Shown piece by piece: positions 24,535-59,844 of a DNA stretch of 64,000 nt (position 1 is the stretch's first letter; each line of letters opens with the position of its first letter). Under the pieces are notes generated by a model. The model was not told the DNA's origin and did not search any database. It was given only the letters and a program-made list of their open reading frames with translations. The translations under genes were made by a program, and so were the position numbers. The DNA lies in NCBI GenBank assembly GCA_964016885.1, contig OZ024741.1:47492001-47556000 (forward strand). The letters are read 5' to 3'. This DNA comes from Eledone cirrhosa. Lineage: Eukaryota.

Positions 24535-27311
24535 TCAAGGATCAATTTCCCCCTCGTCCCTCTGCATATGAAAGTCTGCCGTCCAGGTTGGTGGTCTACG
24601 ACTTCGTTGCGATCTTCGTAGTATTGGGGCAGGGCTCTGGGTTTCCACCTCATCTTGGGTTTCCTCGGAGTCCGTCAACACAGTGATTCTTCTTACATCC
24701 AGGACATGACGTGGTACTCCGTCCATGGACACATTGTTCTTTGAATTTACGGCCGTCACCGTTCCCCTTCCCCATTGAGATGTGCACCGTGCATCTGGGG
24801 GCTTAACCCAGACTTCTTCGCCCACCTGCACGAATGCACTCTCTCTCCCCACTGGCCGTTGTGGTGGCGTGCACGGGTGCCGCCAATTGTATTTGAATAC
24901 TGCTCTATGTGGCACCGATTCCTCGACCTGTCCAACCCGAGGGGACATATTGTACCAGAACACTGCCTCCATTGGTGAGATATGGCCCCGCTCCGCCATT
25001 GCCTTGATCGTCCGGTGGTGTCGCTCCACAATTCCATTCCCGCTCGGCCTGTGCGCCGCTCTGAAGAAACGGTCCACCTTCCATCCATCGAGCATCTCCC
25101 TCAGTGCCTCCGAGCGGAATGCTGCGCTGTTGTCCATCAGCAGTTCGTCCACAGGGCCCCGCTCCAAGAACACCTCTCTCAACGTCCGCACGATTTCCTC
25201 GGCCGTTCCAGTCTTCATCTCCCTCCATATCGCCATTCGACCTGGTCCACAGTCGACCATCGAGAGGTACGTTCCCTGCCGGTAGTGCGTCACATCCACC
25301 GCTAATCGCTTCCAGTCGTGATCCACCAGGAGGCTTCCCGTTTTGTGTACACCCGGGGCGGGATCAATGGACTGACATCGGACGCAGCCTCTAACCACCC
25401 CCTGAACACTGTGTCTGCTAACGTCCGAGTCGATTCTCCTGGCTAGGAACAGGCTCCTATCCACCCCCATGTGGTGCATGTCATGCAACCCCTTCAGGTC
25501 TAACTCGGTCAGCCGACACACGGCAGCTATCTCATCCTCTACCTCCTCCGGCGCTTCCATCCAGGCTTTCTTCACTCTAGTTAAGATGTCCGCCCTATTT
25601 TTCTCTGAGGGCACGAACACTACGCTCAGCTTCAGGTCAAACTCGGTGGCCAGCTCTCCTAACGTTCCCAGGCGGCGCTTTATCAGCATCTCCGCCGCGC
25701 CTCTCGTTTGCACTCTCTTCTCACTGGTGAGCACTGATCTTACCCATCCGAGTACGGTAGCCGAGTCGGTGCGTATCTCGATGGTGCGCAGCCCCCATCG
25801 CAGGGCGAGGTTCACCCCTCTCAACACCGCGTCCAGCTCGGCCACATTGATGTGGCTGCAGTCGTCCTTCTTTCTAAGCCAGGCTGCATCCTCGACCTCA
25901 ACACCTCCTATCTCCAACGTGACACCCAGCGCTATGCTGCTGGCATCGCACCATACGGTCCCGCTCCGTGATTTGGGAACGTACCAGCATCCACGATCTC
26001 CTGCATCATGGCCACCGTTCTCTCTCCCACTCTGTCACTCCAAGTCACCCCTCCCGCTCGTCTCTTGACATAGCTGCATGCCGTCCGGAGCCACCCAGTG
26101 ATCGGGTAGTGACCCACCAGCTTTCCACACACCGAGAAAAGCTCCCGCCTATTCATACTTGGGCACAGTTCCGGAACTTCGTTTCCCCTCTGGAACACCA
26201 AAACGCCCGTCTTATCTCGCTGTAGCCTAAGTCCCAGCGCGGCTCCTCCCTCCAATGCTTCTGATGGCTTCGCAGTCAGTCCATACCTCCGCAAATGGCT
26301 CGTGACCTCCGCCGTCGACACCACCGACTCGTCCACTAGGATGTCGTCAATGTAGGAGTTAGTAGCCCTCTTTATCTTGTCAGCCCTCCCCAGAGCGGTC
26401 TTGAGGACCGCCGCCATGATCTTCGGTGCGGAGCTCAGCCCGAAACCGAGCCTGGTCAGGCAATATGTCCGGCCCTTATACCTGACCAGCTGATACCGCC
26501 AGAGCTTCTCATCTATATGCAACTGCAAGTAAGCCGGCTTTAGATCCACGATCGCTGAACCCCCCGTCATGCGTCTCCACTCACGCAGGGTTTCCCCACA
26601 GACATCCGTGACCTCGCCACCCGTGTGGCATGACACGTGCTCGTTCAGCTCTCGATAGTCCAGCACCGGCCTCACCTTGCTCTTCGTGGGTTGCACCACC
26701 GCCATCAACGGCAATACTCCGCACTTCACCTCCTCCTTCCAGGGAAGCAGTATGCCCTCTTCGATCCATCTCTCTACTTCTCGCTCGAACTCGCCCCTAG
26801 CGTTTCCCTTCAATGTGTGTTGATAGCAGCCCACTTTGGCCTTCAGCGTTGGTGGTTCTCCCTTCCAGTACCACTCAACAACCCATTGCTGCCCATCAAA
26901 CATGGCCTTGAAGTCCTTGTCCTGTACAGTGTAAGCGGGGTATTGCTCCTCGTGGGCCTTCTGGTTCTCATGACGTGCACTCACAGCGCATACCGATGCA
27001 GCGGCGCCAAACGACACACCGACATTGTTCACCGTGACGCCCCCTAGACGGCCAATCGCGTCCATACCCATAACCACGCCGATCCCATCCACCACACTGT
27101 CTACCACAATGGCGGAAAGCCTTATCGTCCTTCCCCGTACCGCTATTTCCATCTCGCTGCGACCTCGGCATTCAATTTTCCTGCCGTCGACTGCTCTTAC
27201 GCTGCTCTTCCCTCCCCACCTCTGCGCCACCCCCGCGGTCACCAGTGTCGTCGTACAGCCCGTATCCACGAGGGCTCGCTGTGGCTTCCCCCTCACGAAG
27301 ACTTCCACCAC
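24535..27311 (-). pseudogene. pol: pol (protease, RT, RNase H, integrase), frameshifted near 25990
   Basis: ALVDTGC; LDYRELN; YIDD; WCDASS/HINVAELDAV/RTDS/NRADILTR; H..H..CVRC; AVDVTH, MDN, NGIVERHH. Confidence 0.9.
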
Positions 27312-27322
27312 GGGCAGCGCCG

Positions 27323-28089
27323 CTACTCGTAAGAGGCAACTACCGGCGCAGTAGTTCCCCTTGGATCGTTTCCCTGGTCGCAGTTAGTAGCGATGTGGCC
27401 TGGTCGCTTACACCGGTAGCAAATTATATCCAGCTTCGACTCTCTACAGTCTCTAGCCATATGCGGGCCGTGACACCTAAAACAGCGGCCCCTAAATTCT
27501 CGCGAACGGCCGCGTGCCGAGGTTGCCTCCCTTTGACCATTTCGCTGCCAGGTGTCCTGAGCCTCCGTAGTCGCTATCGCCGCGACACTCTTTTTGGCAT
27601 CTTCCGCTATGATCCGGGCTTGTTCCACCAGTGAACGCATTTCCATCTCCTTGTACCCCGGGACTTGCTGCAGTTTCACCGCTATGTCGTCCGGAAATCC
27701 ATTGATGAATGCCAACCGCACCGTGCGTTCGCATTCCGCCTGGTAACCGGCCAACATAGCTAACCGCCTTATTTCCGCTGCGAAAATGTCGACGCGCTCA
27801 CCATTCCACCTGATTCTCGCCACGCCAGCTTAGCAAAAGCCGCCAACGGTCCCTCGGCGAATGCATCCATCAGACGCCTCTCAATCTTCTGCACATCTCT
27901 TTGGCTGTGCTCGTCCAACTCAAGGAAGAGTACCAACGCGTCGCCCTCGAGGTACAATGCAATGAGACCGGTCACGTCTTCTATCTTCTGCAAGCCCGCG
28001 ACCAGCCGAACCTTCCGCAGCCAAGCGACAACATCGCCTTCCCCGGTGAATGGCATGATAGCTTCGTTCATCCGTAGTCTTGTCGCCAT
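27323..28089 (-). pseudogene. gag: gag with two Zn knuckles, frameshifted near 27825
   Basis: PFTGEGDVVAWL..ALYLEGDAL; CFRCHGPHMARDC and CYRCKRPGHIATNC. Confidence 0.88.
27332..27374 (-). promoter_or_regulatory. -1 programmed ribosomal frameshift signal (gag-pol)
   Basis: G GGA AAC heptamer in gag frame, short spacer, stem AACTACTG-cgc-CGGTAGTT; the -1 frame runs open into VVEVFVRGKP..DTG. Confidence 0.8.
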
Positions 28090-33135: not shown

Positions 33136-35751
33136 GATTTTAACGGACACGTAGGTAAACACTGCGACGGCTTCAATAGAGTACATGGAGGCCATGGAGT
33201 TGGCACAAGGAATGAGGAAGGATTCAGACTTCTAGAATTCTGCGACGCCAATGACATGTCGATATGTAACACAAACTTTAAAAAACCCGACAACCACCTG
33301 ATCACCTATAGATCAGGGGAGCACTCTAGTCAGTTAGATTTTATCCTCATCAGAGGACGTGACAGATGGACGGTCGTAAACACAAAAGCCTTCCCTAGTG
33401 AGGAATGTACATCCCAACATAGCTTAGTTGTCAGCGACCTCACGGTCAGAACTAGACGAGCCCTGAAACAGAGGCCAACCTGGAGAAGAAAGATCTGGAA
33501 GCTGAAAGTCCCCTCAACCAGTAACAGATTTAAAGATATTTTACTCAACGCCTACGACAGTAAAGAAGAACAGATAGAGACATTTAACGTAGAAGAGAAC
33601 TGGGAGTTCCTAAAAAATAACTTACTAGAGGCGACGGATGAGGTTTGTGGCTGGAGTAAGACCTCAAGCAGGAGGAGAGTGACTTGGTGGTGGAACAATA
33701 AGGTAGATGAAGCAGTCAAGGCCAAGAGACAGGCATGGAAAGAATGGAAGAACGGGGGGAGCAGGGTACATTACATAGAGACCAAGAGGGAAGCTAGGCG
33801 ACAAGTATACTTAGCTAGGAGGGAAGCAGAGGATAGAAAATTCAAGCATGTTTTACAACGTGAGGACCAGAAACAGGAGGTATTCAAGATTGCGAGGCAG
33901 TGTGTCAGAGATAGTTGTGATGTCATTGGAGAGAAGTGTATCCGGAATGATAAAGGTGAGCTTGCCCTCACAAGTGCTGAGAAGAAAGATGCATGGAAGA
34001 GTCATTATGATAGATTACTAAATGAGGAGAATGCATGGGAAGAAGAGACCCTACCCCACGTAGACCCTATAGAGGGACCAGCAGTACAAGTCAGCGGCAG
34101 CGTAGTAAGTAAGGCAATCAGAGATATGAAGATAGGGAAGGCAACCGGTCCATCGGGTATAGCTGCCGAGATGCTGAAGGCATCTGGGTCTGTAGGTCAC
34201 ACTATAACCACACGTATCGTTAACCAGGTAATACTAGAGGGGGCCATACCAAAAGATTGGTGCAGTAGCATCATTGTCAACTGCTACAAAGGTAAAGGCG
34301 ATGCACTAGATAGAGGAAACTATAGAGGTATAAAGTTGATGGACCAGGTCATGAAAGTAACAGAAAGAGTTATAGCACAGCTGATTAGGGACCGGGTGAA
34401 AATAGACGAGATGCAATTTGGGTTTGTACCAGGGAAAGGCACCACTGATGCCCTCTTCCTTGTGAGGCAATTACAGGAAAAGTACCTAGCTAAAAGTAAG
34501 CCACTCTACTTGGCATTTGTCGACCTTGAGAAAGCCTTTGACAGAGTTCCACGTGCAGTAATCTGGTGGGCTCTTAGAAAACTAGGAGTAGATGAATGGC
34601 TTGTGAAAGCGGTACAAGCCATGTATAGGGGAGCAGTCAGCAAAGTTAGGATTGGCAATGAGTATAGCGAGGAATTTAGCGTACAGGTTGGGGTCCACCA
34701 GGGCTCTGTTCTTAGCCCTCTCCTGTTCATCATAGTCCTGCAGGCAATAACGGAGGAGTTTAAGACCGGATGCCCATGGGAACTCCTGTATGCTGATGAC
34801 CTCGCACTCATAGCTGAATCTATGGTAGAACTAGAGAATAAATTCCAAACCTGGAAGCAGGGACTAGAGAGAAAGGGCCTCAAAGTCAACATGACAAAGA
34901 CTAAGGTCCTTGTAAGTAGACGAGAAAACAGAACCCAGATCCCCTCAGGGAAATGGCCTTGCTCAGTATGTAGGAAAGGTGTAGGTAGGAACTCCATTCT
35001 CTGCCCCAAATGCAAACAATGGGTACACAAGAGATGTAGCGGGATCTCAGGAAGCTTAATTAAGAATGTAGGATTCACATGCAGCAGCTGTGCTGAAACA
35101 GCAAGCAAACAGCCACAGGAAACAAGTACCACCAATCTCTGGGAGGGCCCTGTAGAAACAGTAGACAGCTTCTGCTACCTAGGTGACCGAATTAGCAACG
35201 GAGGTGGGTGCTCAGAAAGTACAATAACTAGGGTAAGAACGGGATGGAAGAAGTTTAGGGAACTACTACCACTGCTAGCTGCAAAAGGCTTCTCCCTCAG
35301 AATGAAAGGCAGACTGTATGATGCGTGTATCCGAACAGCCATGTTGCATGGTAGTGAGACCTGGGCGCTGAAGGTGGAAGACTTACGTAGATTAGAGAGA
35401 AACGAAGCCTGCATGCTCCGATGGATGTGTAACAGTAATATACGTGAACGACAAAGCATAAAGGAATTGAGAGAGAGACTGAGCATAAGAGGAATCAAAT
35501 GCTGCGTGCAGGAGAGGCGGTTACGCTGGTATGGACATGTGATGCGTATGAAGGATGACAGCTGCATAAAAAGGTGCAGAGCACTAGAAGTTGATGGAAA
35601 CCGCGGAGTGGGGAGAGCCAAGATGACTTGGGATGAGGTGATAAAAGCCGACCTTACCCAACTACACCTCTCAAAGTCAATGACACACGACCGTGACTTC
35701 TGGCGTCACGCAGTAATACAGGGTACCCGACCTCCCATGGGTACATGCTGA
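33136..35751 (+). CDS. RTE LINE ORF (partial APE, RT, PHD-like finger); uninterrupted but 5'-truncated
   Basis: Frame open from DFNGHVG at 33136; [47 protein letters not shown]. Confidence 0.92.
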
Positions 35752-36852: not shown

Positions 36853-39376
36853 TCATCATCATCATCATCATCATCAACGTTTAACGTCCGTGTTCCATGC
36901 TTGCATGGGTTTGGACGGGGGTAGTCCCACTTGAGGCAAGAGTGATTTTCTTGCTCGCATAGGACTGTCTGGCAGGTTTTCTACAGTTGGATGCCCTTCC
37001 TAACACCAACCACATTTACAGTGTGGGTCTGGGAGGTTTTTACCGTGTTGCCTACACGGCCACATTACAGCGTGTACTGTGTGTTTTTTTGTCGCGACAC
37101 CTACACGATCTCATTTGTTTCGGCCTGGATGGCGCGGCACCAACATAACTTTACATAGAACGGGGTGGTGTGGATGGGGTGGTGGTGGTGGTGGGACGGG
37201 GTGTATTTTGTTAGAGATGCCTACTGGCAAGGCGGGTCTTCTCTATTACTGAGTACCGCCAAAGGTCTCGGTCCAGTGACATTGTATTGGTGAGGTGTAA
37301 GTGTGTGAGGTCGGAGTTTATCAGCTCGTCCCAGGTTTTTCTGGGTCTGCCTATTCCGTGGCTACCGTCTATCTTTATTGCCCTGCACTTTGTTATACAG
37401 CTATCATCCTTCATGCGCATCACGTGACCATACCAACGTAGCCTTCTCTCTAGTAAACAACATCTGATCCCTCTTATTTCTAATTTTTTCCTTAGTTCGT
37501 TTATGCTTTGTCATTCACGTATATTACTATTACACATCCAGCGGAGCATGCAAGCTTCGTTTCTCTCTAGTCTGCGTATATCCTCTGCACACAATGCCCA
37601 GGTCTCACTGCCATGCAACATTGCTGTTCGTATGCAGGCATCGTACAGCCTGCCTTTCATTTTTAGGGAGAACCCTTTAGCGGCTAATAGTGGTATAAGC
37701 TCTCTGAACTTTTTCCACCCAGTTCTGACTCTAGCTACTGTACTTTCAGAGCACCCTCCCCCACTGCTGATTTTGCCACCCAGGTAACGGAAGCTGTCCA
37801 CTATTTCTATAGAACCCTCTTCGCGGTTGAAAGAGCTAGTATTTTGTGGGCACTTGCTGCTACTTATATTCCCAGAACACCGGCCACATGTAAAATCTAT
37901 GTTCTTAGTTAGCTTACCTGTGATCCCACTACATCTTTTATGCACCCAAACTTTGCATTTGGGACACAAAATGGAATTTCTACCTATGCCTTTCCTACAC
38001 TCTGCGCATGGCCACTTCCCCGAGGGAACCGCCGCCTTATTTTCTTTCCTACAAACTAGAACTTTAGTCTTAGCTAGGTTAATTTTAAGGCCTTTTGATT
38101 CTAGGCCGTGCTTCCATGTTTGGAATTTCTTCTCTAGCTCGGCCATTGATTCAGCTATGAGCGTTAGATCATCTGCGTATAGGAGTTCCCATGGGCAGCC
38201 GGTCTTGAACTCCACTGTTATAGCCTGGAGGGCAATAATAAATAGTAGGGGGCTAAGAACAGAGCCCTGATGAACACCAACTTTTACACTAAACTCTTCA
38301 CTATATTCGTTGTTAATTCTAACCTTGCTAACTGTTTCTTTATACATGGCTTGTATAGCTCTCACAAGCCATTCATCAACACCTAGTTTTCTAAGAGCCC
38401 ACCAGATAATGGAACGGGGGACTCTGTCGAAGGCCTTCTCCAAGTCGACGAAAGCTAAGTATAGGGGTTTACTTTTAGCTAGGTACTTCTCCTGTAGTTG
38501 TCGTACAATGAAAAGAGCGTCTGTGGTACTTTTTCCTGACACAAACCCGAACTGCATTTCATCTAGATCAATTCGCTCTCTGATTAGTTGCGCTATAACT
38601 TTTTCCGTGACCTTCATGACCTGGTCGATTAATTTAATGCCTCTATAGTTACTCCTATCTAGGGCATCTCCTTTACCCTTATAACAGTTAACGATAATGC
38701 TGCTGCGCCAGTCCTTCGGAACAACCCCATTCTGTATGACTTGGTTGACTATCCGGGTGACCATGGTGTGTCCCACCGTACCAGATACCTTCAGCATCTC
38801 GGCAACTATTTCCGAAGACCCAGCCGCCTTGCCTATCTTCATATCTTTGATTGCCTTACTTATTATACTACCCTCGACTAACACTGCTGGTCCTTCTATT
38901 GGGTCAATGTGGGGGAGACTGTCTTTCTCCCATTTATTCTCCTCATTTAGTAGCCTTTCATAGTGGCACTTCCAAGCTACCTTCTTATCGGCGTCGGTGA
39001 TGGCAAGTATGCCGTCATCGTTAAGTACACACTTCTCCCCGACAATATCACTGTTTTCCTTGACACATTGCCTAGCAATCCTGAACACCTCACGTTTTTG
39101 GTCATCGCGTTGTAGAACATGCTTGAACTTTCTTTCCTCTGCTTCCCTTCTTGCGAAGTACACTTGTCTCCTAGCTTCCCTCCTGGCCACTTGATAGTCT
39201 TCTCTGCTTCCCCCATCCCGCCATACTTTCCAAGCCTGCTTTTTGGCCTTAATTGACCCCTCCACCTTACTGTTCCACCACCATGTTACTCTCCTCCTGC
39301 CTACAGGCCTGCTCCAGCCACAGACTTCGTCTGCCACCGTCAGCAGGTTTGCTTTCAGGAATTCCCACTGTTCCTC
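36853..39376 (-). mobile_element. RTE LINE (sister subfamily), 5'-truncated, with an in-frame stop
   Basis: ORFs 37511-39337 and 37211-37423; same motifs and 3'UTR type as the 33-36 kb copy. Confidence 0.92.
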
Positions 39377-39423
39377 TACCTGTCGAAAGCATCAAGTAAT
39401 ATGCTTTGGAATTTATTTTTGGC

Positions 39424-40705
<1,282 letters not shown>

Positions 40706-40867
40706 GGTAAATATACACGGGTGTGTATGATTGTGTATAGAAGATTATATTAATAAGAGGAATTCCAACTTTGTCTGATTTACTCGTTTTATTTACAATC
40801 CTTTAAAATATATATAATGGTATTATAATGAAATAGTATGATAGAATATTAAATTCTAAGTGTTAAT

Positions 40868-40906
40868 TGAACAAGTACTTTCATGCTTTCGCAATCTTCA
40901 GGTTCA
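40868..40906 (-). ncRNA. Minimal type I hammerhead ribozyme
   Basis: tgaac-CTGAAGA-t tgc gaaa gca t-GAAA-gtac-TT-gttca; sense to and downstream of the PLE ORF. Confidence 0.85.
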
Positions 40907-41281: not shown

Positions 41282-43290
41282 TTATTGTTCATTTAGCTTG
41301 GGTTTGAATTTATCAATAAAATTCTTTTCTTTGATTTTTCTCTTGATTTCATTTGGGCTGTGTAATTTGTAGAATGGGAATATTATAAATATTCCCTGAC
41401 CACATGTTGCCAGGTGGCCGCTTAGGGGTATCTGACGGACATTTGGGTCTCTGATTTGTTGACGGTGTACCCGTGCACGTTCCGATAGTGCATTTCCAGT
41501 TTGACCGACATATAGTTCTTCACAATTCGGGCATTTAATGCAGTAAATTAGATTTCTGCTTTTGCAGTTCATATTTGCATTTGTGAATATTTTTCCAGTT
41601 TTTGTTTTCATATATTGACCGGCGTGTATGGATTGACATGTGCCGCATCGATTATCATTGCATTTAGATACAGTGAATGATTGGTCTTTGTTGTTAAGGT
41701 CAAACTTTGCTTTTGTTAGCAATTGCTTCAAATTTTTTGGCTGTCTTTTACTAAGAGTCAAAGATCGATCTGTGATTAAGCCTTTTAATTCATTACTTTG
41801 AGCAATGATCGGTAGGTTTGCTTTGGCAGTGTTGAAGATATTCTGGTGACATGGGTTGTGTGTCATTATAAATGGTTTGACCAGTTCTTGGTTTCTTCTT
41901 CTTTGGGTTGTTCTAAGTTGTTGTATAGGTATTTTTATAGCCCGCTGTATGCCATTTTCTATAAGTAGAGATGGGTATTTTTGTTTGAGCAAAAATTCTC
42001 TTAGTTCTGTTAGGCGTTTGTACCTGGTATTCGTATCTTCTACAATGGTACAAATTCTTCTGGCTAGGCAGTATGGGATGTTGCGTTTTGTATGAGGTGG
42101 ATGGCACGACTTAAAATTCAGATATTGATGGGTGTCTGTGTGTTTATAATATATATCCGTGGTAATGGTGGTGTCGTTTTTGATTATCATTATATCTAGG
42201 AATGGTAATTTGGTCCTACTCATCTCTTTTGTGAATTGGAGAGATGGGTGTAGGTTATTCAGGAGGATATTGAACTCATCCAGAGTATCTAGAGATTCTG
42301 TCCAGATGATGAAACAGTCGTCAAGGTATCTCTTCCAAGATTTTTCAATGTACTTTCTAAAGTCAGTACTATATTTTTCCTCTATTTCTTGGTAGAGTTG
42401 TTGTTCTAAGTATCCCATTACAGAGTTCGCGTAAACGGGAGCAAACTTCGTTCCCATCGCTGTGCCTCTAATTTGGATGTAATTCTTTCCATTGAAGAAG
42501 AAAGTGTTGTTTTCCAGAATAAGTTTAACTGCGTCTAATATAAATGGCGCTGTGAATCTAATGGGAATCACTTCTCTATGTTTTTCCACCCAGTATTTAA
42601 CCGCCTTTATTCCTAAATCATGTGTAATGTTGGTGTAAAGGCTTACCACATCAAAACTGAGTAGAAGTGAATTCGTTTCCGTGGTTTTGGGAAGATGGGA
42701 CAGGAAGTCGATATCATCCCGGATGAAACTGGGTATGTGAATACATAGTGGTTTCAAAATAATGTCAACAAAATTGCTTAGACGGTGAGTGGGGCATGTT
42801 GGACCAGCTATAATAGGTCTAAGTTTTAAGTCTTTTGGGTGTAATAATTTAATGTACTCACTGTTTTGTTCTCTTACTGCCAGTTGTATTTCTTTTGACT
42901 TGTGAACTTTCGGTAGGCCATACAGGTTGCTGGGTTTCGGCTCAAAATTGGTGATGTAGTCTCTTTCCTTATCAGTAAATGAGTTGTGGTATTTTGAAGC
43001 CAGGTTGTTGATCTTCTTCATGATGTTGTGGTCTATATTTGACGGTATTTCATGATAGAATGTTGTGTCTTTCAGTTGTTCCTCAACCAAATCCTTGTAG
43101 TATTCAGTATCCATTATAACAACTGCACCCCCTTTATCTGCTTGTTTAATTATTATTGTTTTATCATTTTGTATACGTTTAAGTGCAGACATTTCTGATT
43201 TGTTAATGTTTGGCCTAACATTAGTATTATGTCTAAGAGGAAATTTAGACAGGATGTCAATGTATTGGTCGAGATAGATATTTCTTCCTT

Positions 43291-43291
<1 letters not shown>
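41282..43291 (-). CDS. PLE RT + Cys linker + GIY-YIG endonuclease; frame open to the truncation point
   Basis: ADKG, FDVVSLYTNI, GTAMG, RYLDD, LPFLD, KCNDNRCGTC, NLIYCIKCPNC..YVGQTG..R..H. Confidence 0.92.
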
Positions 43292-43343
<52 letters not shown>

Positions 43344-43345
<2 letters not shown>

Positions 43346-43776
43346 TGGAATAAATGCTCTGAAATAGCGATATATATGTGAATATAGACATAGAATATTC
43401 GAAAATATTCTGTATGTTTATTATAAACATACAGAATATTTTCGAATATTCTATGTCTATATTCACATATATATCGCTATTTCAGAGCATTTATTCCAAT
43501 TTCTAATTTCTGCCGGACCGGCAACCGCTCTTTCAAACCAGTTCCTGTACACAGCTAAGTATTCTATAAGTCTCTAGCTGTGTCATTCTCGATAAAAGCA
43601 CTGGATATGTAGTCCTGATGATTTCTAACAAGAATGAAACGCGTAGATTACTTCCCTTGCTTTTATCGAGAATCTAATTGTAATACGTGACGTATTCTAT
43701 TCTATAGCGATTAGGTCTTCAAAATGTTTATTATAAACATACAGAATATTTTCGAATATTCTATGTCTATATTCAC

Positions 43777-47809: not shown

Positions 47810-48962
47810 ATGGCTAACCAGCAAAAATCCAAACAGAACTGGTCTGATAATGAAATTGACATTCTAATAAACACATGGCATTGCCTTACCCAAACAGAAG
47901 ACATAGATGCTTCATGTCTGAACGACATTGCTAAATGTACAGTTCACCTTTTGAAAACCCGATCTGAACAACAGATTCAAAATAAATTAAAGCAAATCGA
48001 AGTTGCTTTTAAATTAATCAATGAACATTTGGATAAACTACGGTGTGTTTTTTCTTCGGATGCTGTCCAACAGCAGCAACAACAACAACAGCAGCAACAA
48101 CGGCAACAACAACAACAGCTACAACAACAACAGCAACAACAACAACAGCAACAACAACAACGACAACAACAGTGTGAACCACTCCTTGATTCATCAACAA
48201 TGGCCGAACTACTAAATGAAACTATTGACCTCCCAGTAGCCACTGTCTCACAGCAGGAAACGCCTCTTCCTTTCTCTGCCCCAACAGGCCAATCATCACC
48301 ACTGCCAACATCTCCTCTGCCTACTACTACTACTACAACAACATCTTTGCCTACTGCTATCTCAAGGAATTTACCTTCTAATACCAGTACAAGAACTCTC
48401 CCTCCCACAGCCCACAAAGGTCGTCAAAACCTACTCAAACTATCATCTACACCTCTCACAACACACACACACACATACACGCCCACTCGAAACCCCATCA
48501 TTTGCCGCTACTCTCTACGCTATAGAATATGTACGGAGAGTGGCTGCAAATTCACCCATTTACCTAGGACAAAACGGTCTATCCCCACAAACAGCCACCA
48601 CCATAATACATACTCTAATTTAACACCAACACAACCACCAATAACTCAAACAAGGAATCCACAAATCTGCCGCTTTTCCCTGCGAGACATTGTGTTTACA
48701 CCGGGATTGTCCCTTTACCCATCTCCCGGGGACCCGTCGGACAAATGAAAATAAAAATAAAAATAAAAGCAAAAACAAAAACCATAACCTACATAAAAAT
48801 AACCACTACCACAGTCACCAACAGTATCCTAAGCAGGAAACTTCTTCCTCTTTTTTAGCCATAATGAATCTGGCAAAAGAACTGGAAAAAAACATTCGAG
48901 CTATCACCCAGCACCACCCTCCACTATCACCCCACTGCACAAACTCCCATTGCTGCCATTAA
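47810..48962 (+). pseudogene. LINE ORF1: Myb/SANT-like N terminus, polyQ, two CCCH fingers; 1-nt frameshift near 48690
   Basis: NWSDNEIDILINTW..RSEQQIQNKLK; ~35-residue Q run; CRYSLRYRICTESGCKFTH and restored CRFSLRD(I)CLHRDCPFTH. Confidence 0.7.
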
Positions 48963-51900
48963 CAAACAAACAAATTAACAACACACCAAAACAATTAAAA
49001 CCATCCACTCTCGCCTCAACATTTTTGCTTAACGCCCAAGGCATCAGCCCTTCCACCAATACTCAAAAATGGAAGATCAAATTCCTGGAGGACTGGGTTG
49101 ATGTCCATCCAAACCACATCCCTTTCTTCGTCATCACTGAAACCCATCTCAGTAACCTCCACTTGGAAGCCGAGGTGAAAGTGAAAAATTTCAAAGCCAT
49201 CCGTGCTGATCGCGCTGGCAGAAGAAAGGGTGGGACTGCCATTTATGTCCATAATTCTTTCTCAACAGAGGCTATGAACATATTTACTAATGGATACTGC
49301 GAAGCAGTCACTGTATTCAGTCAAACCAACAACCTAATAGTAGTTGGGCTCTATAGGCCACCCCAAACGCCTCTACCATGCTTCAAGGAATGCCTCAACA
49401 GCATAAAGTGTTTCATCCAAGAGTGTCACCCTGACAACATCTTAATGATGGGGGACTTCAACCTCCCCGGAGTTGACTGGTCCACAAACAGCCTGCCACC
49501 AGGTTCTTCTGCCTCAACCTCTGACAGGGAAGCAGTGGAATCGCTTCTTGACTTCATGGATGATTTCTTCCTGTCCCAACTGGTGCTCGAACCAACGAGG
49601 TGCCACAAAAACGTCCTAGACTTAATTTTCAGCAATCACACTGACAACATCCACAATATTGCAGTGGAGAAAACTCTACTCTCTGATCATGACATGGTTC
49701 TCTGTGATCTGATATTCCACCGTCCAATATACAAACCCAATGTCATCTCTCCTGTCCATCCGTTTGACGCTATGGATTTCCACAATGCAAACTGGGAAGC
49801 GATCAGTCATGATCTTGCACATGTCGACTGGTCCTTCACGCACACTCATACACCCACTAACATCAAAAAGTCCTGGCAGACATTTGTGGACACTGTTACA
49901 AACATATGTGCAAACCCACCCCATTAAGAACTAGAAACAAATCTAAGAGCAGAATCCCTAGAAATAGAAAAACGCTCATCAGGAAAATTAAGAGAACTAA
50001 CAAAAAAATCAACAAGCTGAAATACTGTCAGCAGCAACACATCAACTTGACTGCCATTTCATCACTAGAGATTAAAAAACATAACCTCCAAAACAATATG
50101 ATGTCTATCATCAACAATCAGAGAAGAGCTGAAGAGGCCTGGGCTATTGAGAAGATCAAACTCAATCCCAAAGTGTTCTTTTCATTTGCAAAAAAAACAC
50201 AAAATCACTGGCTCTACTGTTGGCCCTCTAATTGATGAAAATGGCACTCTTCAAGACAATGCTAAAACCATGGGTGAGATACTGCAGAAACAATACTGCT
50301 GTTTTCAGCAATCCTGATATGGCCGATCTGGGCTGTATCGGCGATGTTACTCCCCATTACACCTTATCGGACATAACGTTTGGCGCCCCTGATGTCTTAG
50401 CGGCAATAAAGGAAATCAAGCATAATTCAGCAGTAGGTCCCGATAGGTTCCCTGCTTGTGTCTTGAAGGCGTGTCAACACCAACTTGCATCTCCTCTTGC
50501 CAATCTGTGGCGGAACTCAGTGGATGCTGGATATGTGCCAGAAAACCTTCTATCCCAGTCTGTTGTCCCAGTTTTCAAAAAAGGAAACAAATCCCTTGCC
50601 GTGAATTACCGTCCAATCTCACTCACCTCTCATATCATTAAGGTATTTGAGAGAGTGGTGAGATCGCGAATGACTCACTTCCTTGAGAGTAACAATATGC
50701 TGAACTCCAACTAGCATGGATTCCGTAATGGAAGGGATTGCCTGACGCAGCTACTGCATCACTTTGATGACATTTTGAGAGCCTTGGGAGAGGGTTCCAA
50801 CACTGATGTTATCTACCTTGATTTCAGCAAGGCCTTTGACAGGGTTGATCACAACATTCTACTGAGAAAGCTGTCCAATATTGGTGTCACTGGAAAGCTG
50901 CTGCAGTGGATCAAGAGCTTCCTGTCAAACAGAACCCAACATGTTGTAGTCGAAGGAGTCAAATCCAGCCCAGCCAAAGTCAGTTGTGGGGTCCCACAAG
51001 GCACTGTGTTGGGCCCACTTCTCTTCATCATCTATATTAATGACATCACTGACATCATCAAACACAGCAACATTAGAATTTTCGCTGATGATTCCAAGCT
51101 CCAAAAGGTCATCGATGGCGTGGATGACCGGATAAGCCTTCAGTCAGACCTACTGGCTGTTACCCAATGGGCGGAAAAGAACAACATGTTACTGAACGAA
51201 GACAAATTCGAACTGATCCACTTTGGAAAAGAGGATGCTCTGAAACTCCCGTACTCCCTTCCCTCTGGTGAAACTCTCGTGGCATCTAACAACATCAGAG
51301 ACTTGGGAGTAACCGTGGACAGCAACATAAGCTGGGCCACGCATATAAGCAGCAAAGTTGACATGGCCCGCAGAATGTGTTCCTGGATCCTCAGAACCTT
51401 CCAGTCGAGAGATTCCCACACCATTATCCTTCTCTTCTCTACTTTTGCCCGACCACACCTTGAATACTGTTGTCCACTGTGGTCTCCCCACACGAAACAA
51501 AGTATCATGAAACTTGAAGCTCTCCAAAGGGCAATCACGAAAAAGATAGATGGCATGTCAGACCTTGACTACTGGGGTCGACTAGAAAAGCTGAAACTTT
51601 ACTCACTCCAACGTCGCCGTGAGCGTTATATTATCTGCATGATGTGGAAAATGTTTCATCAGCACTGCCCAAATGATGTTGGCATCACCTTCAAAATACA
51701 CCCAAGGCTTGGGCCCCGTGCTATCCGTCCCAAACAAAAATCTAAATCGCAACACATAACAACAATACGGCACAATTATTTCACCTCAATTGGCCCTGCT
51801 CTCTTCAACATCACACCAGGACACGTCAAAATAGAAACTGACCACACAAAATTCAAGAAGTCTTTGGACAAATTCCTCCAAGTAATCCCGGACAAACCAC

Positions 51901-51968
51901 CCACACCCGGATATGTCTCCGCAAACAGTAATTCTCTTCTCGAATGGGCCATGGTGCCCAAATCCTGA
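48950..51968 (+). pseudogene. LINE ORF2 (AP endonuclease + RT), with frameshifts and a TAG at 50712
   Basis: LNAQG, ITETHL, YRPP, GDFN, LDLIF, SDH; NYRPISL, YLDFSKAFD, GVPQG, FADD. Confidence 0.92.
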
Positions 51969-55564: not shown

Positions 55565-55790
55565 AGTAATAATAATAAATTTGAAGACTAAAATCCAAAG
55601 AGGGCTCGATAAGGATAAATATATATCAAATATATAAGAACCGTAGAGCAAATATTTATTAAAATAACAGATTAAAGTTTAAGCAAAGAATCGCTGCTTT
55701 CACCCTTAACGGGATCTTCTGAAACTTTCAGAAGATCCCGTTAAGGGTCAAAGCAGCGATTCTTTGCTTAAACTTTAATCTGTTATTTTA

Positions 55791-55798: not shown

Positions 55799-55854
<56 letters not shown>

Positions 55855-55995
55855 AGTATTGAAGTTTCCGTTGAAAATTGAAAAAGTCATATTTTTTTAT
55901 ATATTTTATATGTCTATTGCATTACTTTTATTTATATATATATATTTTTTTTGCTTTTCTTGAGGAGACTTTCCAAATATTTCACTATGTTTTAT

Positions 55996-56073
55996 ATTGC
56001 CTCGTCCGACGAACGAATGTGGACGTTTCTTTCGTATTCGTCTTATTCGGGAAACCTCTGGTAATGAGGTAAT
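55996..56073 (+). ncRNA. Variant-core hammerhead (CCGACGA) in the 5' pLTR
   Basis: attgcctcgt-CCGACGA-cgaat..attcg-GAAA-cc tct gg-TA-atgaggtaat. Confidence 0.7.
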
Positions 56074-56293
56074 TATATTGTATTGTTTATTATACATTAA
56101 ATTTTGCTCTGGTACTTACATAGAGCACTCTTCACTCCTATGACTTTTTCAATTTTCAACGGAGCCTTCAATACTTATACAGCTCCCAAGGGAATGATCA
56201 CAGCATATTCTACATTTTTATGAGATTGGCACCTTCCAGCCCTTTTAAAGTCGAGCACTCTTCAGTCAATAGTATTTTAAACCAATACTGAAC

Positions 56294-58430
56294 ATGGATA
56301 AATACCCTTTGGATTACTCTATCAAGAATATCCAACACCTTCTAACACTTTCTACACGAAAATGCTGATAGACAAAGTAGAGAAGGTTGTTGAAAGAATG
56401 AGATGGAAAGCTTTGATTCTCAATGGACATTTTAACACAGATTCTACGGAACATTTTGACATCAAAACTCATAAATACCCGCAAAGAGTAAAAGATATGA
56501 CCGCTTTTGAACTAGACTTAGTTAATCTAATCAACAATATCAATTTTCGTAAGTACTCTAACCCTTTTCAATCTAAACTATATAATGATATTTCAATATT
56601 CAAATCTTCTAAAAATAAGTTCATTTTCTCCGACAAAACTAAAAACCTATATGAAGTTAATAATAATTTACACGATCAACTATTAATAGATAATATCACC
56701 TCTAAATACCAAATAGCTAATATAAATACGTATCATAATATAAATAAGGAAGCTAAAGAATTAGCTGTTTCTTTAAAAATAGATAATAGGACAGAAAAAC
56801 TTGCTAAACGTAATGAATATATTACTCTTAAAGATCACAAACCCGACTTTATTAATCGTCCTAGTTGTAGATTAATCAACCCTGCTAAGACTGATATTGG
56901 TCTTGCCAGCAAAATAATCTTAAATAATATAAACACACACATTAGAAGTAAGTCTAAGTTACTCCAATGGATAAATAGCTCTTCCGTAGTACATTGGTTT
57001 AATAAAATTAAAGATAAAAATAGTTCTAGGATCACCCAATTTGACATTGTAGATTTCTACCCATCTATCACTCAAACTCTTTTAGCGAAAGCTTTAAATT
57101 TCGCTAGAAAGTTTACCAATATCTCTGATATTGAAGAGAATGTCATCTTGCACGCTAGAAACACTCTACTCTTTACTGATAATGACACTTGGGTAAAAAT
57201 ATCTAACCCAGAGAGCCCATTCGATGTCTCAATGGGCTCTTTTGATAGTGCTGATGTTTGTGATTTAGTCGGCCCATTCCTCCTACACACAATTAAAGAA
57301 AAATTCCCTAACCATATTTTTGGACTTTATCGCGACGATGGTCTAATACTTTCCCATACCACCATAGGCCATAACTTAGATAGATTAAGTAAAGACTTAA
57401 TAAAAACCTTTGCTAGTTTCAATCTTAAAATTACTATTGACACTAACCTTTCCAATGTTAATTTCCTAGATATAAACCTAGATTTGCCTACTGCTTCTTA
57501 TAAACCATACCATAAACCTAATGAAAATTTAAAATATATAAATAAAGGCTCTTGCCATCCTCCTATAGTTTTAAAAACCTTATCCCTAATATTAGCCGGA
57601 GGATCTCCACCATCTCTTCCTCAGAAGCTATTTTCAATAAGGCATCCCCCTACTATAATAAAGCCCTCCAAAATAGCGGATTTAGCGAACCGATTAAATA
57701 CATACCCAACTATACTAACTCTATTAAACATAAAAACAGGAAAAGAAAAATAATCTGGTTCACACACCCCTACTCTCTAGCAGTTAAAACTAATGTAGGC
57801 AAAAAATTCCTAGAACTCTTAGATAAACATTTCCCTAGAACACATAGATACAATAAGATCTTTAATAGAAACTGTGTCAAAATTAGCTACTCCTGCGGTC
57901 CCCCTATTAAATCTTATATCATCAACAAAAAATCACCTAGAGAACATCAAAATTGCTCCTGTAGATTCAAAATTGAATGCCCATTACAAGGTAAATGCAA
58001 CGCCAAAGCCATTGTATATGCGGCTAAAGTGACAACCATCAGCAACAACCAACCAGCCACCAGTGAACGATATGTGGGTATGACACAAGACAAATTCAAA
58101 ACGCGTTATTACTCACATGTCGCATCCTTTCGACATCCAGAAAAAAGATTCACAACAGCTCTGGCTAGCAGAATATGGGATTTGAAAGACCAAGGTATCC
58201 AATATAAATTGGATTGGTCAATTTTGAACCAATCTAAAGAATATGCAAGAGGAACAAGAAAATGCTCGCTCAGCATAAATGAAAAATATTGGATTTTACA
58301 AAACCTTAAATCACCAAAAACCTGCCTAAATACAAAGACAGAAATTTTCACCAGTTGCCCACACATGAAATCACACTTGCTTTCCAGCTCATATAAACTT
58401 AACACACTTTCAGATACTTATCCTCCATAG
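56294..58430 (+). pseudogene. PLE RT + CxCx5C + GIY-YIG ORF with frameshifts near 56330 and 57580
   Basis: YSIKNI, ERMRWKA, SDKT, FDIVDFYPSI, SMGS, GLYRDDGL, NFLD, CSCRFKIECPLQGKC, AIVY..YVGMT..KTRY. Confidence 0.9.
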
Positions 58431-59735
58431 GCTCTTATTCTTCACTTAAATTATTCTCTTTAAAGACTACTCTTTCTGATTTACTTTTTTAACCTTATTA
58501 TTAATTTTATTTTTATTTTTATTTTTACTTCACATCCACCAGTAACCCCCCCCCCTTTTATTCTTCGATTTACTTACCTAATATCTTCACTTTCGACTTT
58601 TTACTTCCCTATTTTCTTTACTACCTGATTACACAAGTCACTTGCGTTTTCCAATCCAGATATTTTCTGTAATTTCGCAGCCAATTTTATATTTTTATAT
58701 TTGTACTGACTTATTCATAAGGCTGCTTTACAAAGAGTATCTATGTGTCTGAGCGTCTTTATGTGTGTATACTTTCTGTATATGTACACGAATGCCTCCG
58801 TATGTGCGCGTGCGTGCGTGTGTATATATATGTGTATGTATGTGTGTTTTTATATCTGTTTTTACATCTATTTTTTTACATTCTTATTTTTATGTGTGTG
58901 CTTGTAAGCGGGTCAATGTGCGTGAATGTATATATGTGTGTATGTGTGTATATATGTATTGTATGTATGGGTGTGTATGTGTGCGTGTGTATATATATAT
59001 ATATATATTATGTATATATGTGTGTGTATACAGTCGCGTACATACGTGTGATTAGATATACATGGGGCGATATGTATGTATGTATATATGTGCATCCTGT
59101 GTGTGTATGTACGCTTGCATACGCTTTTGTCTGCACGTATTGCGTGTATATATATAATTTTTTTTATAGATATATATTTCTCATAGATATATGTGTATGT
59201 ACGCGTGTACCTTGTTTGTTTTCTTTTCTTTTCTCTTCTCTAGTGTTAATTGACTACTTTCTCTTTCATTTAAATATTGTTCCATTTTTATAAATATATC
59301 GAGAATGACACTTTCTTTTAACTATTACACTCCCTTACCACTTTATCTTCCACATATAAGTAATCGCGCGTGTATGTGTGTTTATACGCGTGCCTTCATA
59401 TTCTTATATGTATCTAACACCCTGTTTATGTATACATGTCAACGAGATTATAAATTTATTTTCAACTTATATTATATCCGTATTTGTGGTTACATATACA
59501 CAAATATACTTGCCCTCACATATATATTTACGCACACATTTTCACCATACACACGCATTTGTACATACATACATACATATGTGAGTGTATATACATACAT
59601 ATACACACACCTAACTATATTTCCTTATATTTTTTAATATATTTTATATGTCTATTGCATTACTTTTATTTATATATATATATATATTTTGCTTTTCTTG
59701 AGGAGACTTTCCAAATATTTCACTATGTTTTATAA

Positions 59736-59809
59736 TGCCTCGTCCGACGAACGAATGAGGACGTTTCTTTCGTATTCGTCTTATTCGGGAAACCTCTGGT
59801 AATGAGGTA
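59736..59809 (+). ncRNA. Variant-core hammerhead (CCGACGA) in the 3' pLTR
   Basis: Same fold as 55996-56073. Confidence 0.7.
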
Positions 59810-59844
59810 ATTATATTGTATTGTTTATTATACATTATATATAT

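What the first reader, a model, noticed from the sequence alone, without database searches (positions are those of the whole stretch)
55996..59809. Second variant core CCGACGA (U4C) in both pLTRs of full-length PLE family B
Seen: a 10-bp stem I, long stem II, GAAA, 2-bp stem III and a GUA site surround CCGACGA, identically in the 5' and 3' pLTRs. The two families with DKT and CxCx5C motifs (Hydra-clade-like, assigned from memory of motif descriptions) both deviate at position 4. The Neptune-like element keeps CUGAAGA. Inference: relaxation of U4 may be a clade-specific property of these ribozymes.
Basis: partly seen in the sequence, partly recalled or inferred. Interest (0 to 1): 0.75.

Follow-up and report, generated by a model that had tools for sequence, protein, structure and literature searches.

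The report
Hammerhead core letter flips, then reverts
A jumping gene carries a small hammerhead-shaped RNA motif, predicted to cut itself, in which a normally fixed core letter reads C instead of U in about 30% of its genomic copies; the family tree indicates that the letter likely went from U to C and back to U while the element kept spreading, so the change is likely tolerated and is not a mark of the whole group.

Summary
Observation confirmed, with small corrections. Both pLTRs of this Hydra-type Penelope-like element carry a type I hammerhead fold with core CCGACGA. The window copy itself is dead (two frameshifts). C4 is still not copy-specific. An ORF tree is a ladder: oldest copies U4, a middle interval C4 (14 of 14, this copy included), youngest copies U4 again. 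The sister family has U4. The other core letters and proximal helices stay fixed. U4 loss is not clade-wide: 25 of 27 published Hydra families and the largest Hydra-type group here (64,085 matches) keep U4. Two other Hydra-type families here lost it independently (A4, about 25,000; C4, about 7,600). The scan noted those two before on other DNA; no note matched this family. Copies end downstream of the predicted cut site in both states, so they were likely made from uncut RNA. Best reading: a tolerated, probably slower ribozyme variant under weak selection. Cleavage is untested.

The parts
55889..56102 (+). 5' pLTR of family B element
   Evidence: direct repeat, 97% to 59627-59840
55996..56073 (+). 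type I hammerhead fold, 5' copy; 10-bp stem I, A.G mismatch at 10.1/11.1, GUA site, predicted cut after 56063
   Evidence: 0 of 60 shuffles give such a fold
56006..56012 (+). variant core CCGACGA; position 4 = 56007
   Evidence: C in 728 of 2,437 genomic matches
56103..56179 (+). tail extension after the pLTR; second preferred 3' end of copies
   Evidence: copy ends pile up near 56100 and 56179
55851..55891 (-). short inverted copy of the tail at the element's 5' end, joined to (TA)n
   Evidence: 95% match over 41 nt to 56139-56179
56276..58430 (+). RT plus C-terminal GIY-YIG-like ORF with RWK, DKT and CxCx5C motifs; broken by 1-nt deletions near 56334 and 57569
   Evidence: intact relatives have a 719-aa frame
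58431..59626 (+). microsatellite-rich 3' UTR
   Evidence: shared with other copies
59627..59840 (+). 3' pLTR, followed by (TA)n
59736..59809 (+). type I hammerhead fold, 3' copy; core CCGACGA at 59744-59750, 8-bp contiguous stem I
55674..55780 (.). head-to-head pair of family A pLTR ends with core CAGAAGA (A4); neighbour, not part of element B
   Evidence: A4 in 25,155 of 25,443 genomic matches
40866..40906 (-). canonical hammerhead (CTGAAGA) downstream of the Neptune-like ORF 41282-43417; comparison element

Best explanation
This is the pLTR hammerhead motif of a Hydra-type Penelope-like retrotransposon in which core position 4 is C in one subfamily; the master lineage likely went U to C and back to U, and the C form is likely a slower but tolerated ribozyme because new copies are likely made from uncut RNA. 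Shown: the fold, the genome-wide counts, the tree order of states, the fixity of the other core letters and proximal helices, and copy ends 39 or 116 nt beyond the predicted cut site in both states. Inferred: U4C arose once in the master element and was carried through several hundred insertions. It then reverted by a C-to-T change at the CpG that it had created, either neutrally or with slight advantage. The motif would work as a weak, dimer- or protein-assisted cutter, as reported for other PLE hammerheads. Selection keeps the fold and the catalytic guanosines but acts only weakly on cutting rate, so position 4, the most tolerant of the conserved core letters, drifts. The same release would explain the independent A4 and C4 families in this genome.
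For: Counts: C4 216+512 = 728; U4 1,113 plus up to 596. ORF DNA tree of 48 rows (states completed): 3 basal rows U, 14 of 14 middle rows C, youngest clade of 29 rows (100/100) 26 U, 1 C, 2 untyped. Tip lengths fall from 0.022-0.034 to 0.011-0.028 to mostly under 0.013. A single C4 clade is rejected (AU p 4e-58 for all 13 C rows, 2e-43 without two outliers). The sister family (about 68% aa identity) has U4. Young U4 pLTRs carry the markers of late C4 pLTRs (no 2-nt deletion, C at 56003, A at 56021), which fits point reversion. Per-copy C>T decay at other CpGs is only 0.4-4.9%. In 168 distinct pLTR copies, 0 of 11 other core sites, 0 of 7 stem III sites and 0 of 11 stem I 3' sites carry a second allele at 10% or more. 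The figure is 3 of 56 structured sites (2 of them pair-preserving) against 21 of 95 elsewhere, p = 0.006; for the half not fixed by my search patterns 1 of 32, p = 0.014. 3' ends lie near 56100 or 56179 in both states, and 1 of 35 long copies starts at the cut site. In family C, stem III varies as CAATTG 29, CAGCTG 14, CAGTTG 5 of 48, always self-complementary, and 3 of 7 fetched regions hold an intact 832-aa ORF. Papers: a natural U4C viroid hammerhead has much lower activity in vitro yet stays infectious (PMC3088659, passage). No U4 change was among 46 phage-selected inactivating point mutants (PMC4075628). Hammerhead mutants do not affect PLE insertion in vitro and the ribozyme needs the PLE protein (PMC11167929, passages).
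Against: No cleavage or RNA data. All 7 typed copies with a stop-free full frame (715-719 aa) have U4, and no stop-free C4 copy was seen; age explains this but a cost of C4 would too. Copies per unit of backbone change are about half as many in the C phase (156 against 278, rough arithmetic). C4 strengthens a CCGA/UCGG misfold by 0.2-1.2 kcal/mol in all 11 backgrounds folded, and the monomer hammerhead is a minor conformer in either state, so the C form could be nearly silent. One C copy (L142) sits in the young clade, so recombination or recurrent change occurs. The root rests on two distant rows. Rows L131-L207 were picked by state; only L329-L357 were picked by ORF.
Confidence: 0.68

Rival explanations
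1. C4 is a null allele: the ribozyme was dead during the C phase, cutting is dispensable for copying, and the fold is kept for another job such as binding the element's own protein.
For: Copies derive from uncut RNA. Hammerhead mutants do not block insertion in vitro (PMC11167929). C4 favours a core-sequestering misfold and 10.1/11.1 is mismatched. Family A spread to about 25,000 matches with A4 and a CUU site.
Against: The catalytic letters G8, G12, C3, G5 and A6 never vary at subfamily level in B and are the same in families whose proteins are 35-70% alike, although my scans required them. The stem III palindrome changes compensatorily in a C4 family. A natural U4C keeps some activity (PMC3088659).
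Confidence: 0.17
2. One reading: U4 is relaxed in the Hydra clade as such, through some compensating feature of its ribozymes.
For: All three non-U4 lineages that I found here are Hydra-type. The Neptune-like element keeps U4. B and the largest part of C share an A.G mismatch at 10.1/11.1.
Against: 25 of 27 published Hydra families have U4. The D group (100 of 100 listed) and sister family G (99 of 100 listed) keep U4. The three non-U4 states are separate on the tree. B has the same A.G mismatch with U4 and with C4, and in C the mismatch is AG 28, CT 13, CA 6, GT 1 of 48.
Confidence: 0.08
3. Position 4 is selected as a tuning knob: C4 or A4 lowers self-cleavage, raises the supply of uncut template and so favours amplification.
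For: Three independent changes at one position in one genome; two of them are fixed in large families, one with young intact ORFs.
Against: Family B returned to U4 and its output did not fall. The most abundant group keeps U4. C4 constancy in family C is no stronger than that of free position 7 (48 of 48 each).
Confidence: 0.06
4. Copy-specific mutation or assembly error.
For: The window copy is a dead element with about 1.5% private changes.
Against: 728 exact C4 matches genome-wide; C4 tracks other subfamily markers; independent reads hold both letters.
Confidence: 0.01

Closest known systems
Hydra clade of C-terminal-endonuclease Penelope-like elements (Craig et al. 2021, PMC8557442; passages of sections 11, 15, 20 and supplement parts 1-2 read)
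   Same: RWK, DKT, CxCx5C linker, no CCHH in the endonuclease, (TA)n targets, pLTR with type I hammerhead; many listed Hydra hammerheads also have a mismatch or extra base at 10.1/11.1.
   Different: All 25 listed Hydra families have CUGANGA; this subfamily has C4. Stem II here is longer (38 nt) and stem III is an imperfect palindrome.
Minimal and short-stem-III hammerheads of metazoan PLE pLTRs (Cervera and De la Pena 2014, PMC4209133; parts 1-2 of 4 read)
   Same: Type I motif in both pLTRs, weak stem III, predicted dimer action, low activity in vitro; a core variant (U3-A8) already reported in PLEs.
   Different: The parts read report no position-4 variant; their descriptor fixed the core boxes.
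Natural U4C viroid hammerhead (Ambros and Flores 1998; paper not held, known only through PMC3088659 and PMC4075628)
   Same: Same substitution; reduced activity tolerated in vivo.
   Different: A viroid sequence variant in an RNA that must cut to replicate, not a retrotransposon subfamily of several hundred copies with a dated gain and loss.
PAc Poseidon element of Anolis (Frangieh et al. 2024, PMC11167929; passages read)
   Same: pLTR hammerhead upstream of the copy ends; tail between two reverse-transcription starts; uncut RNA as template.
   Different: Canonical core; other clade; activity shown there, untested here.

Membership tests
Type I hammerhead ribozyme | three helices around the core, open at stem I | tested here: met
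   2 observed against 0 in 60 shuffles
Type I hammerhead ribozyme | core C3, G5, A6, G8, A9, G12, A13, A14, A15.1-U16.1, H17 | tested here: met
   all present; none segregates in 168 copies
Type I hammerhead ribozyme | U at position 4 | tested here: not met
   C in this copy and 728 of 2,437 matches; met in the other 70%
Type I hammerhead ribozyme | base pair at 10.1-11.1 | tested here: not met
   A.G in all family B classes, U4 or C4; mismatches or extra bases here are common in listed Hydra hammerheads
Type I hammerhead ribozyme | match to an Rfam hammerhead model | tested here: not met
   no hammerhead family at E up to 10 in 55950-56120
Type I hammerhead ribozyme | site-specific self-cleavage | not testable with these tools
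   no assay possible
PLE dimeric hammerheads | short self-complementary stem III that lengthens in a dimer | tested here: inconclusive
   imperfect palindrome, predicted duplex -5.1 kcal/mol with a 3x3 loop
Penelope-like element | pLTR direct repeats, inverted 5' piece, tail | tested here: met
Penelope-like element | single ORF, RT followed by GIY-YIG endonuclease | tested here: met
   719-aa frame in intact copies; weak match to the window's Pfam-positive PLE (E 1e-6); no Pfam hit for the window pieces; window copy frameshifted
Hydra clade | RWK, DKT, CxCx5C linker, no CCHH in the endonuclease | tested here: met
   against motif list in PMC8557442
Hydra clade | insertion into (TA)n | tested here: met
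Hydra clade | placement with named Hydra proteins in an RT tree | not tested
   tree holds only this genome's elements and unnamed homologues that share the motifs
Hydra clade | canonical hammerhead core in every family | tested here: not met
   C4 in this subfamily; U4 in the family's oldest and youngest copies and in its sister family

The most novel reading that the evidence does not exclude
Core position 4 is a reversible rheostat of PLE hammerheads: master elements switch between a cutting (U4) and a damped (C4 or A4) state, because cutting is needed rarely and destroys the template for insertion. Family B records one full cycle, and the element's protein may rescue the damped form.
Probability: 0.15. 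Interest if true: 0.7.

Novelty: new variant of a known kind. Interest (0 to 1): 0.42.

Why it matters
What PLE hammerheads do is an open question. Family B supplies natural, nearly isogenic U4 and C4 alleles with a dated order and copy counts, so cutting rate can be set against transposition success within one lineage. It also shows that searches requiring CUGANGA miss tens of thousands of motifs in one genome, including families with young intact ORFs. The importance is moderate: U4C is known from a viroid, dispensability of cleavage for insertion is published in vitro, and the scan has noted the two larger families already.

Tried and rejected
Rfam: whole-window scan gave only microsatellite miRNA noise among the 150 listed of 532; the local scan gave no hammerhead. 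Pfam had no hit for the two window ORF pieces and PDB none for an intact relative. Sequencing runs: no RNA holder listed. Per-copy CpG decay as the source of U4 copies: rejected, 0.4-4.9% at other CpGs against about 70% U; it may explain a few old copies (oldest class 19 U, 4 C). C4 as the youngest expanding subfamily, my first reading: rejected. The first tree, with one short outgroup, showed C4 as mostly one group; this fell with more rows. Pile-up of 5' ends at the cut site: not seen. Covariation of C4 with the A.G mismatch: rejected. An A-like hammerhead with U4 behind a divergent ORF (L114/L227) was not resolved and is not counted as family A's ancestor. Literature searches: 'hammerhead ribozyme'+'U4C' gave 1 paper; 'hammerhead'+'CCGANGA' 0; core heptamers gave only primer noise; searches listed no report of a position-4 variant PLE family. 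Ambros and Flores 1998, Lunse et al. 2017 and Nelson and Uhlenbeck 2008 were not held; Ruffner 1990 was not seen. Lunse's 150,000 variants and the 2014 paper's supplements, unseen, may hold such cores. PMC6765202, PMC6155905, PMC12192606 and PMC10085705 were seen as passages and bioRxiv 10.64898/2026.07.22.740005 as part 1 of 5; none bore on U4.

Full report
1. Observation. The window is G000:C2:47492001-47556000 of a 3.0-Gb genome. Two 214-nt direct repeats (55889-56102, 59627-59840; 6 differences) flank an ORF and a microsatellite-rich 3' UTR. Each repeat holds a type I hammerhead fold with core CCGACGA, GAAA, a 2-bp stem III and a GUA site. Such folds occur twice in the window and in none of 60 shuffles. 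The two copies share the core but differ at two other bases; stem I is 10 bp in the 5' copy and 8 contiguous bp in the 3' copy. Stem II starts with an A.G mismatch. Rfam does not detect the motif.

2. The element. The ORF has RWK, DKT and CxCx5C and lacks the CCHH cysteines, the motifs given for the Hydra clade in PMC8557442 (passages). It is broken by 1-nt deletions near 56334 and 57569; other copies have an open 719-aa frame. An inverted tail piece and (TA)n flank it. Placement beside named Hydra proteins was not tested, so membership rests on motifs and target site.

3. Exact 22-mer counts: with the GCCTCG stem, C4 216 and U4 1,113; with the GCCTTG stem, 1,108 in all, of which C4 512. C4 is 728 of 2,437 (30%). 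In the first 100 listed of the 1,108 none had A or G; A and G were not counted for the GCCTCG stem. These are pLTR matches, not elements, and older copies are under-counted. Independent DNA contigs show both letters. So other copies do carry CUGACGA, but C4 is a subfamily allele linked to other markers, not a private mutation.

4. Order of states. A 48-row ORF tree rooted on the sister family is a ladder with many starred rungs. States came from adjacent pLTRs. Basal L191, L194, L198 are U4. The next 14 rows, including the window copy, are all C4. The terminal clade of 29 rows (100/100) has 26 U4, one C4 (L142) and two untyped. Tip lengths shrink up the ladder, which supports the direction apart from the root. 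A single C4 clade is rejected by AU tests on a 26-row set. The sister family's hammerhead, linked to its ORF in 6 of 20 fetched regions, has U4 in 99 of the first 100 listed of 4,564. Young U4 pLTRs keep the late C4 markers, which fits a C-to-T reversion at the CpG; other CpGs decay at 0.4-4.9% per copy and none changed in the class majorities. About 12 of 153 pLTR sites changed in the same interval, so neutral reversion is quite possible. Limits: 40 fetched regions were picked by state, the outgroup is distant, and L142 shows recombination or recurrence.

5. Is the fold still selected? Over 168 distinct copies, none of the 11 other core sites, 7 stem III sites or 11 stem I 3' sites has a second allele at 10% or more. 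Three of 56 structured sites do, two as G.U to G-C changes, against 21 of 95 outside (p = 0.006; 1 of 32, p = 0.014, for the half not fixed by my patterns). The copies are related, so these p-values are a guide only. The pattern-free read table agrees: in runs X1-X3 no core site but 56007 reaches 5%. Position 4 alone has a second allele at 46% of the sampled copies. Folding shows a cost: C4 completes a CCGA/UCGG helix and lowers the share of open-core conformers in all 11 backgrounds, by 0.2-1.2 kcal/mol; the open core is a minority (0.2-17%) in either state.

6. Template. In 81 C4 and 99 U4 copies the 3' ends cluster near 56100 and 56179, past the predicted cut at 56063/56064. One of 35 long copies starts at the cut site. 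Insertions were therefore likely copied from uncut RNA, as found in vitro for PAc, where ribozyme mutants did not affect insertion and cutting needed the protein (PMC11167929, passages).

7. Clade or not. Published Hydra families: 25 of 27 have CUGANGA, one is 3'-incomplete, one is listed as core-only; the descriptor required the canonical core, but it left almost no family unexplained. In this genome: family A has A4 in 25,155 of 25,443 matches. Family C, found by a relaxed scan of fetched loci, has C4 in 99 of the first 100 of 4,364 and 96 of the first 100 of 7,943 broader matches, across ORFs 72-91% alike, with intact 832-aa frames in 3 of 7 regions and a stem III that stays self-complementary in three forms. 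The D group has U4 in 100 of the first 100 of 64,085 and Hydra-type ORFs. In the protein tree B with its sister, A, and C with D are separate, so the three non-U4 states arose independently.

8. Mechanism. Position 4 is the most tolerant conserved core letter on the evidence that I could read: a natural U4C viroid variant is slower yet infectious (PMC3088659), and phage selection for inactive ribozymes returned no U4 change among 46 point mutants (PMC4075628). PLE hammerheads are weak and dimeric (PMC4209133). With insertion using uncut RNA, selection on rate would be weak, while the fold and catalytic bases are kept. I put 0.68 on a tolerated, slower variant, 0.17 on a null allele with the fold kept for another job, 0.08 on a Hydra-specific release and 0.06 on positive tuning. 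Against the best reading: all 7 typed stop-free copies are U4 and output per backbone change was roughly half in the C phase.

9. Novelty. Ten paper searches found no report of position-4 variants in PLEs, but Lunse et al. 2017 and several supplements could not be seen. The scan already noted family A and C4 families in this genome and U4C or A4 families in other genomes (AI notes, found after my own counts); none matched this sequence. What is added here is the U-C-U time series in one lineage and the canonical controls. Verdict: new variant of a known kind, interest 0.42.

Noticed in passing
L181-L187, L293, L298-L301 (e.g. G000:C1:73181200-73186200): Family C: Hydra-type element with C4 core fixed across divergent subfamilies, about 7,600 matches, young intact 832-aa ORFs, compensatory stem III palindrome. 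Best substrate for a cleavage test.
   Followed up: yes
window 45360, 54434, 55721 (-) and 55729 (+): Family A hammerheads with A4 core, U.U at 10.1/11.1 and a CUU site; 98.9% of 25,443 genomic matches have A4.
   Followed up: partly
L360 (G000:C3:367117100-367119100): 3' end of a family B copy with an excess of A>G changes (42 against 14 T>C), clustered in the pLTR; resembles RNA editing written back into DNA.
   Followed up: partly
window 43609-43651 (+): A further canonical hammerhead (CTGATGA) beside the start of the Neptune-like ORF, on the opposite strand; family not traced.
   Followed up: no
L228-L257, L288-L295: D group: at least 64,085 canonical hammerheads with a six-base palindromic stem III, linked to two Hydra-type ORF lineages.
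   Followed up: partly
L114 / L227 (G000:C1:94832000-94840000): Diverged family-A-like hammerhead with U4, 347 nt behind a different Hydra-type ORF; may be an older relative or a decayed nested copy.
   Followed up: no
L142 (G000:C3:260430600-260436450): Copy with a young-clade ORF but C4 in both pLTRs: possible recombinant or second U-to-C change.
   Followed up: no
window 33136-35751 (+), 37511-39391 (-), 48833-51968 (+), 24535-27383 (-): LINE-type RT ORFs with PHD fingers, an endonuclease-RT element, and protease/RNase H/integrase pieces of an LTR-type element (Pfam).
   Followed up: no
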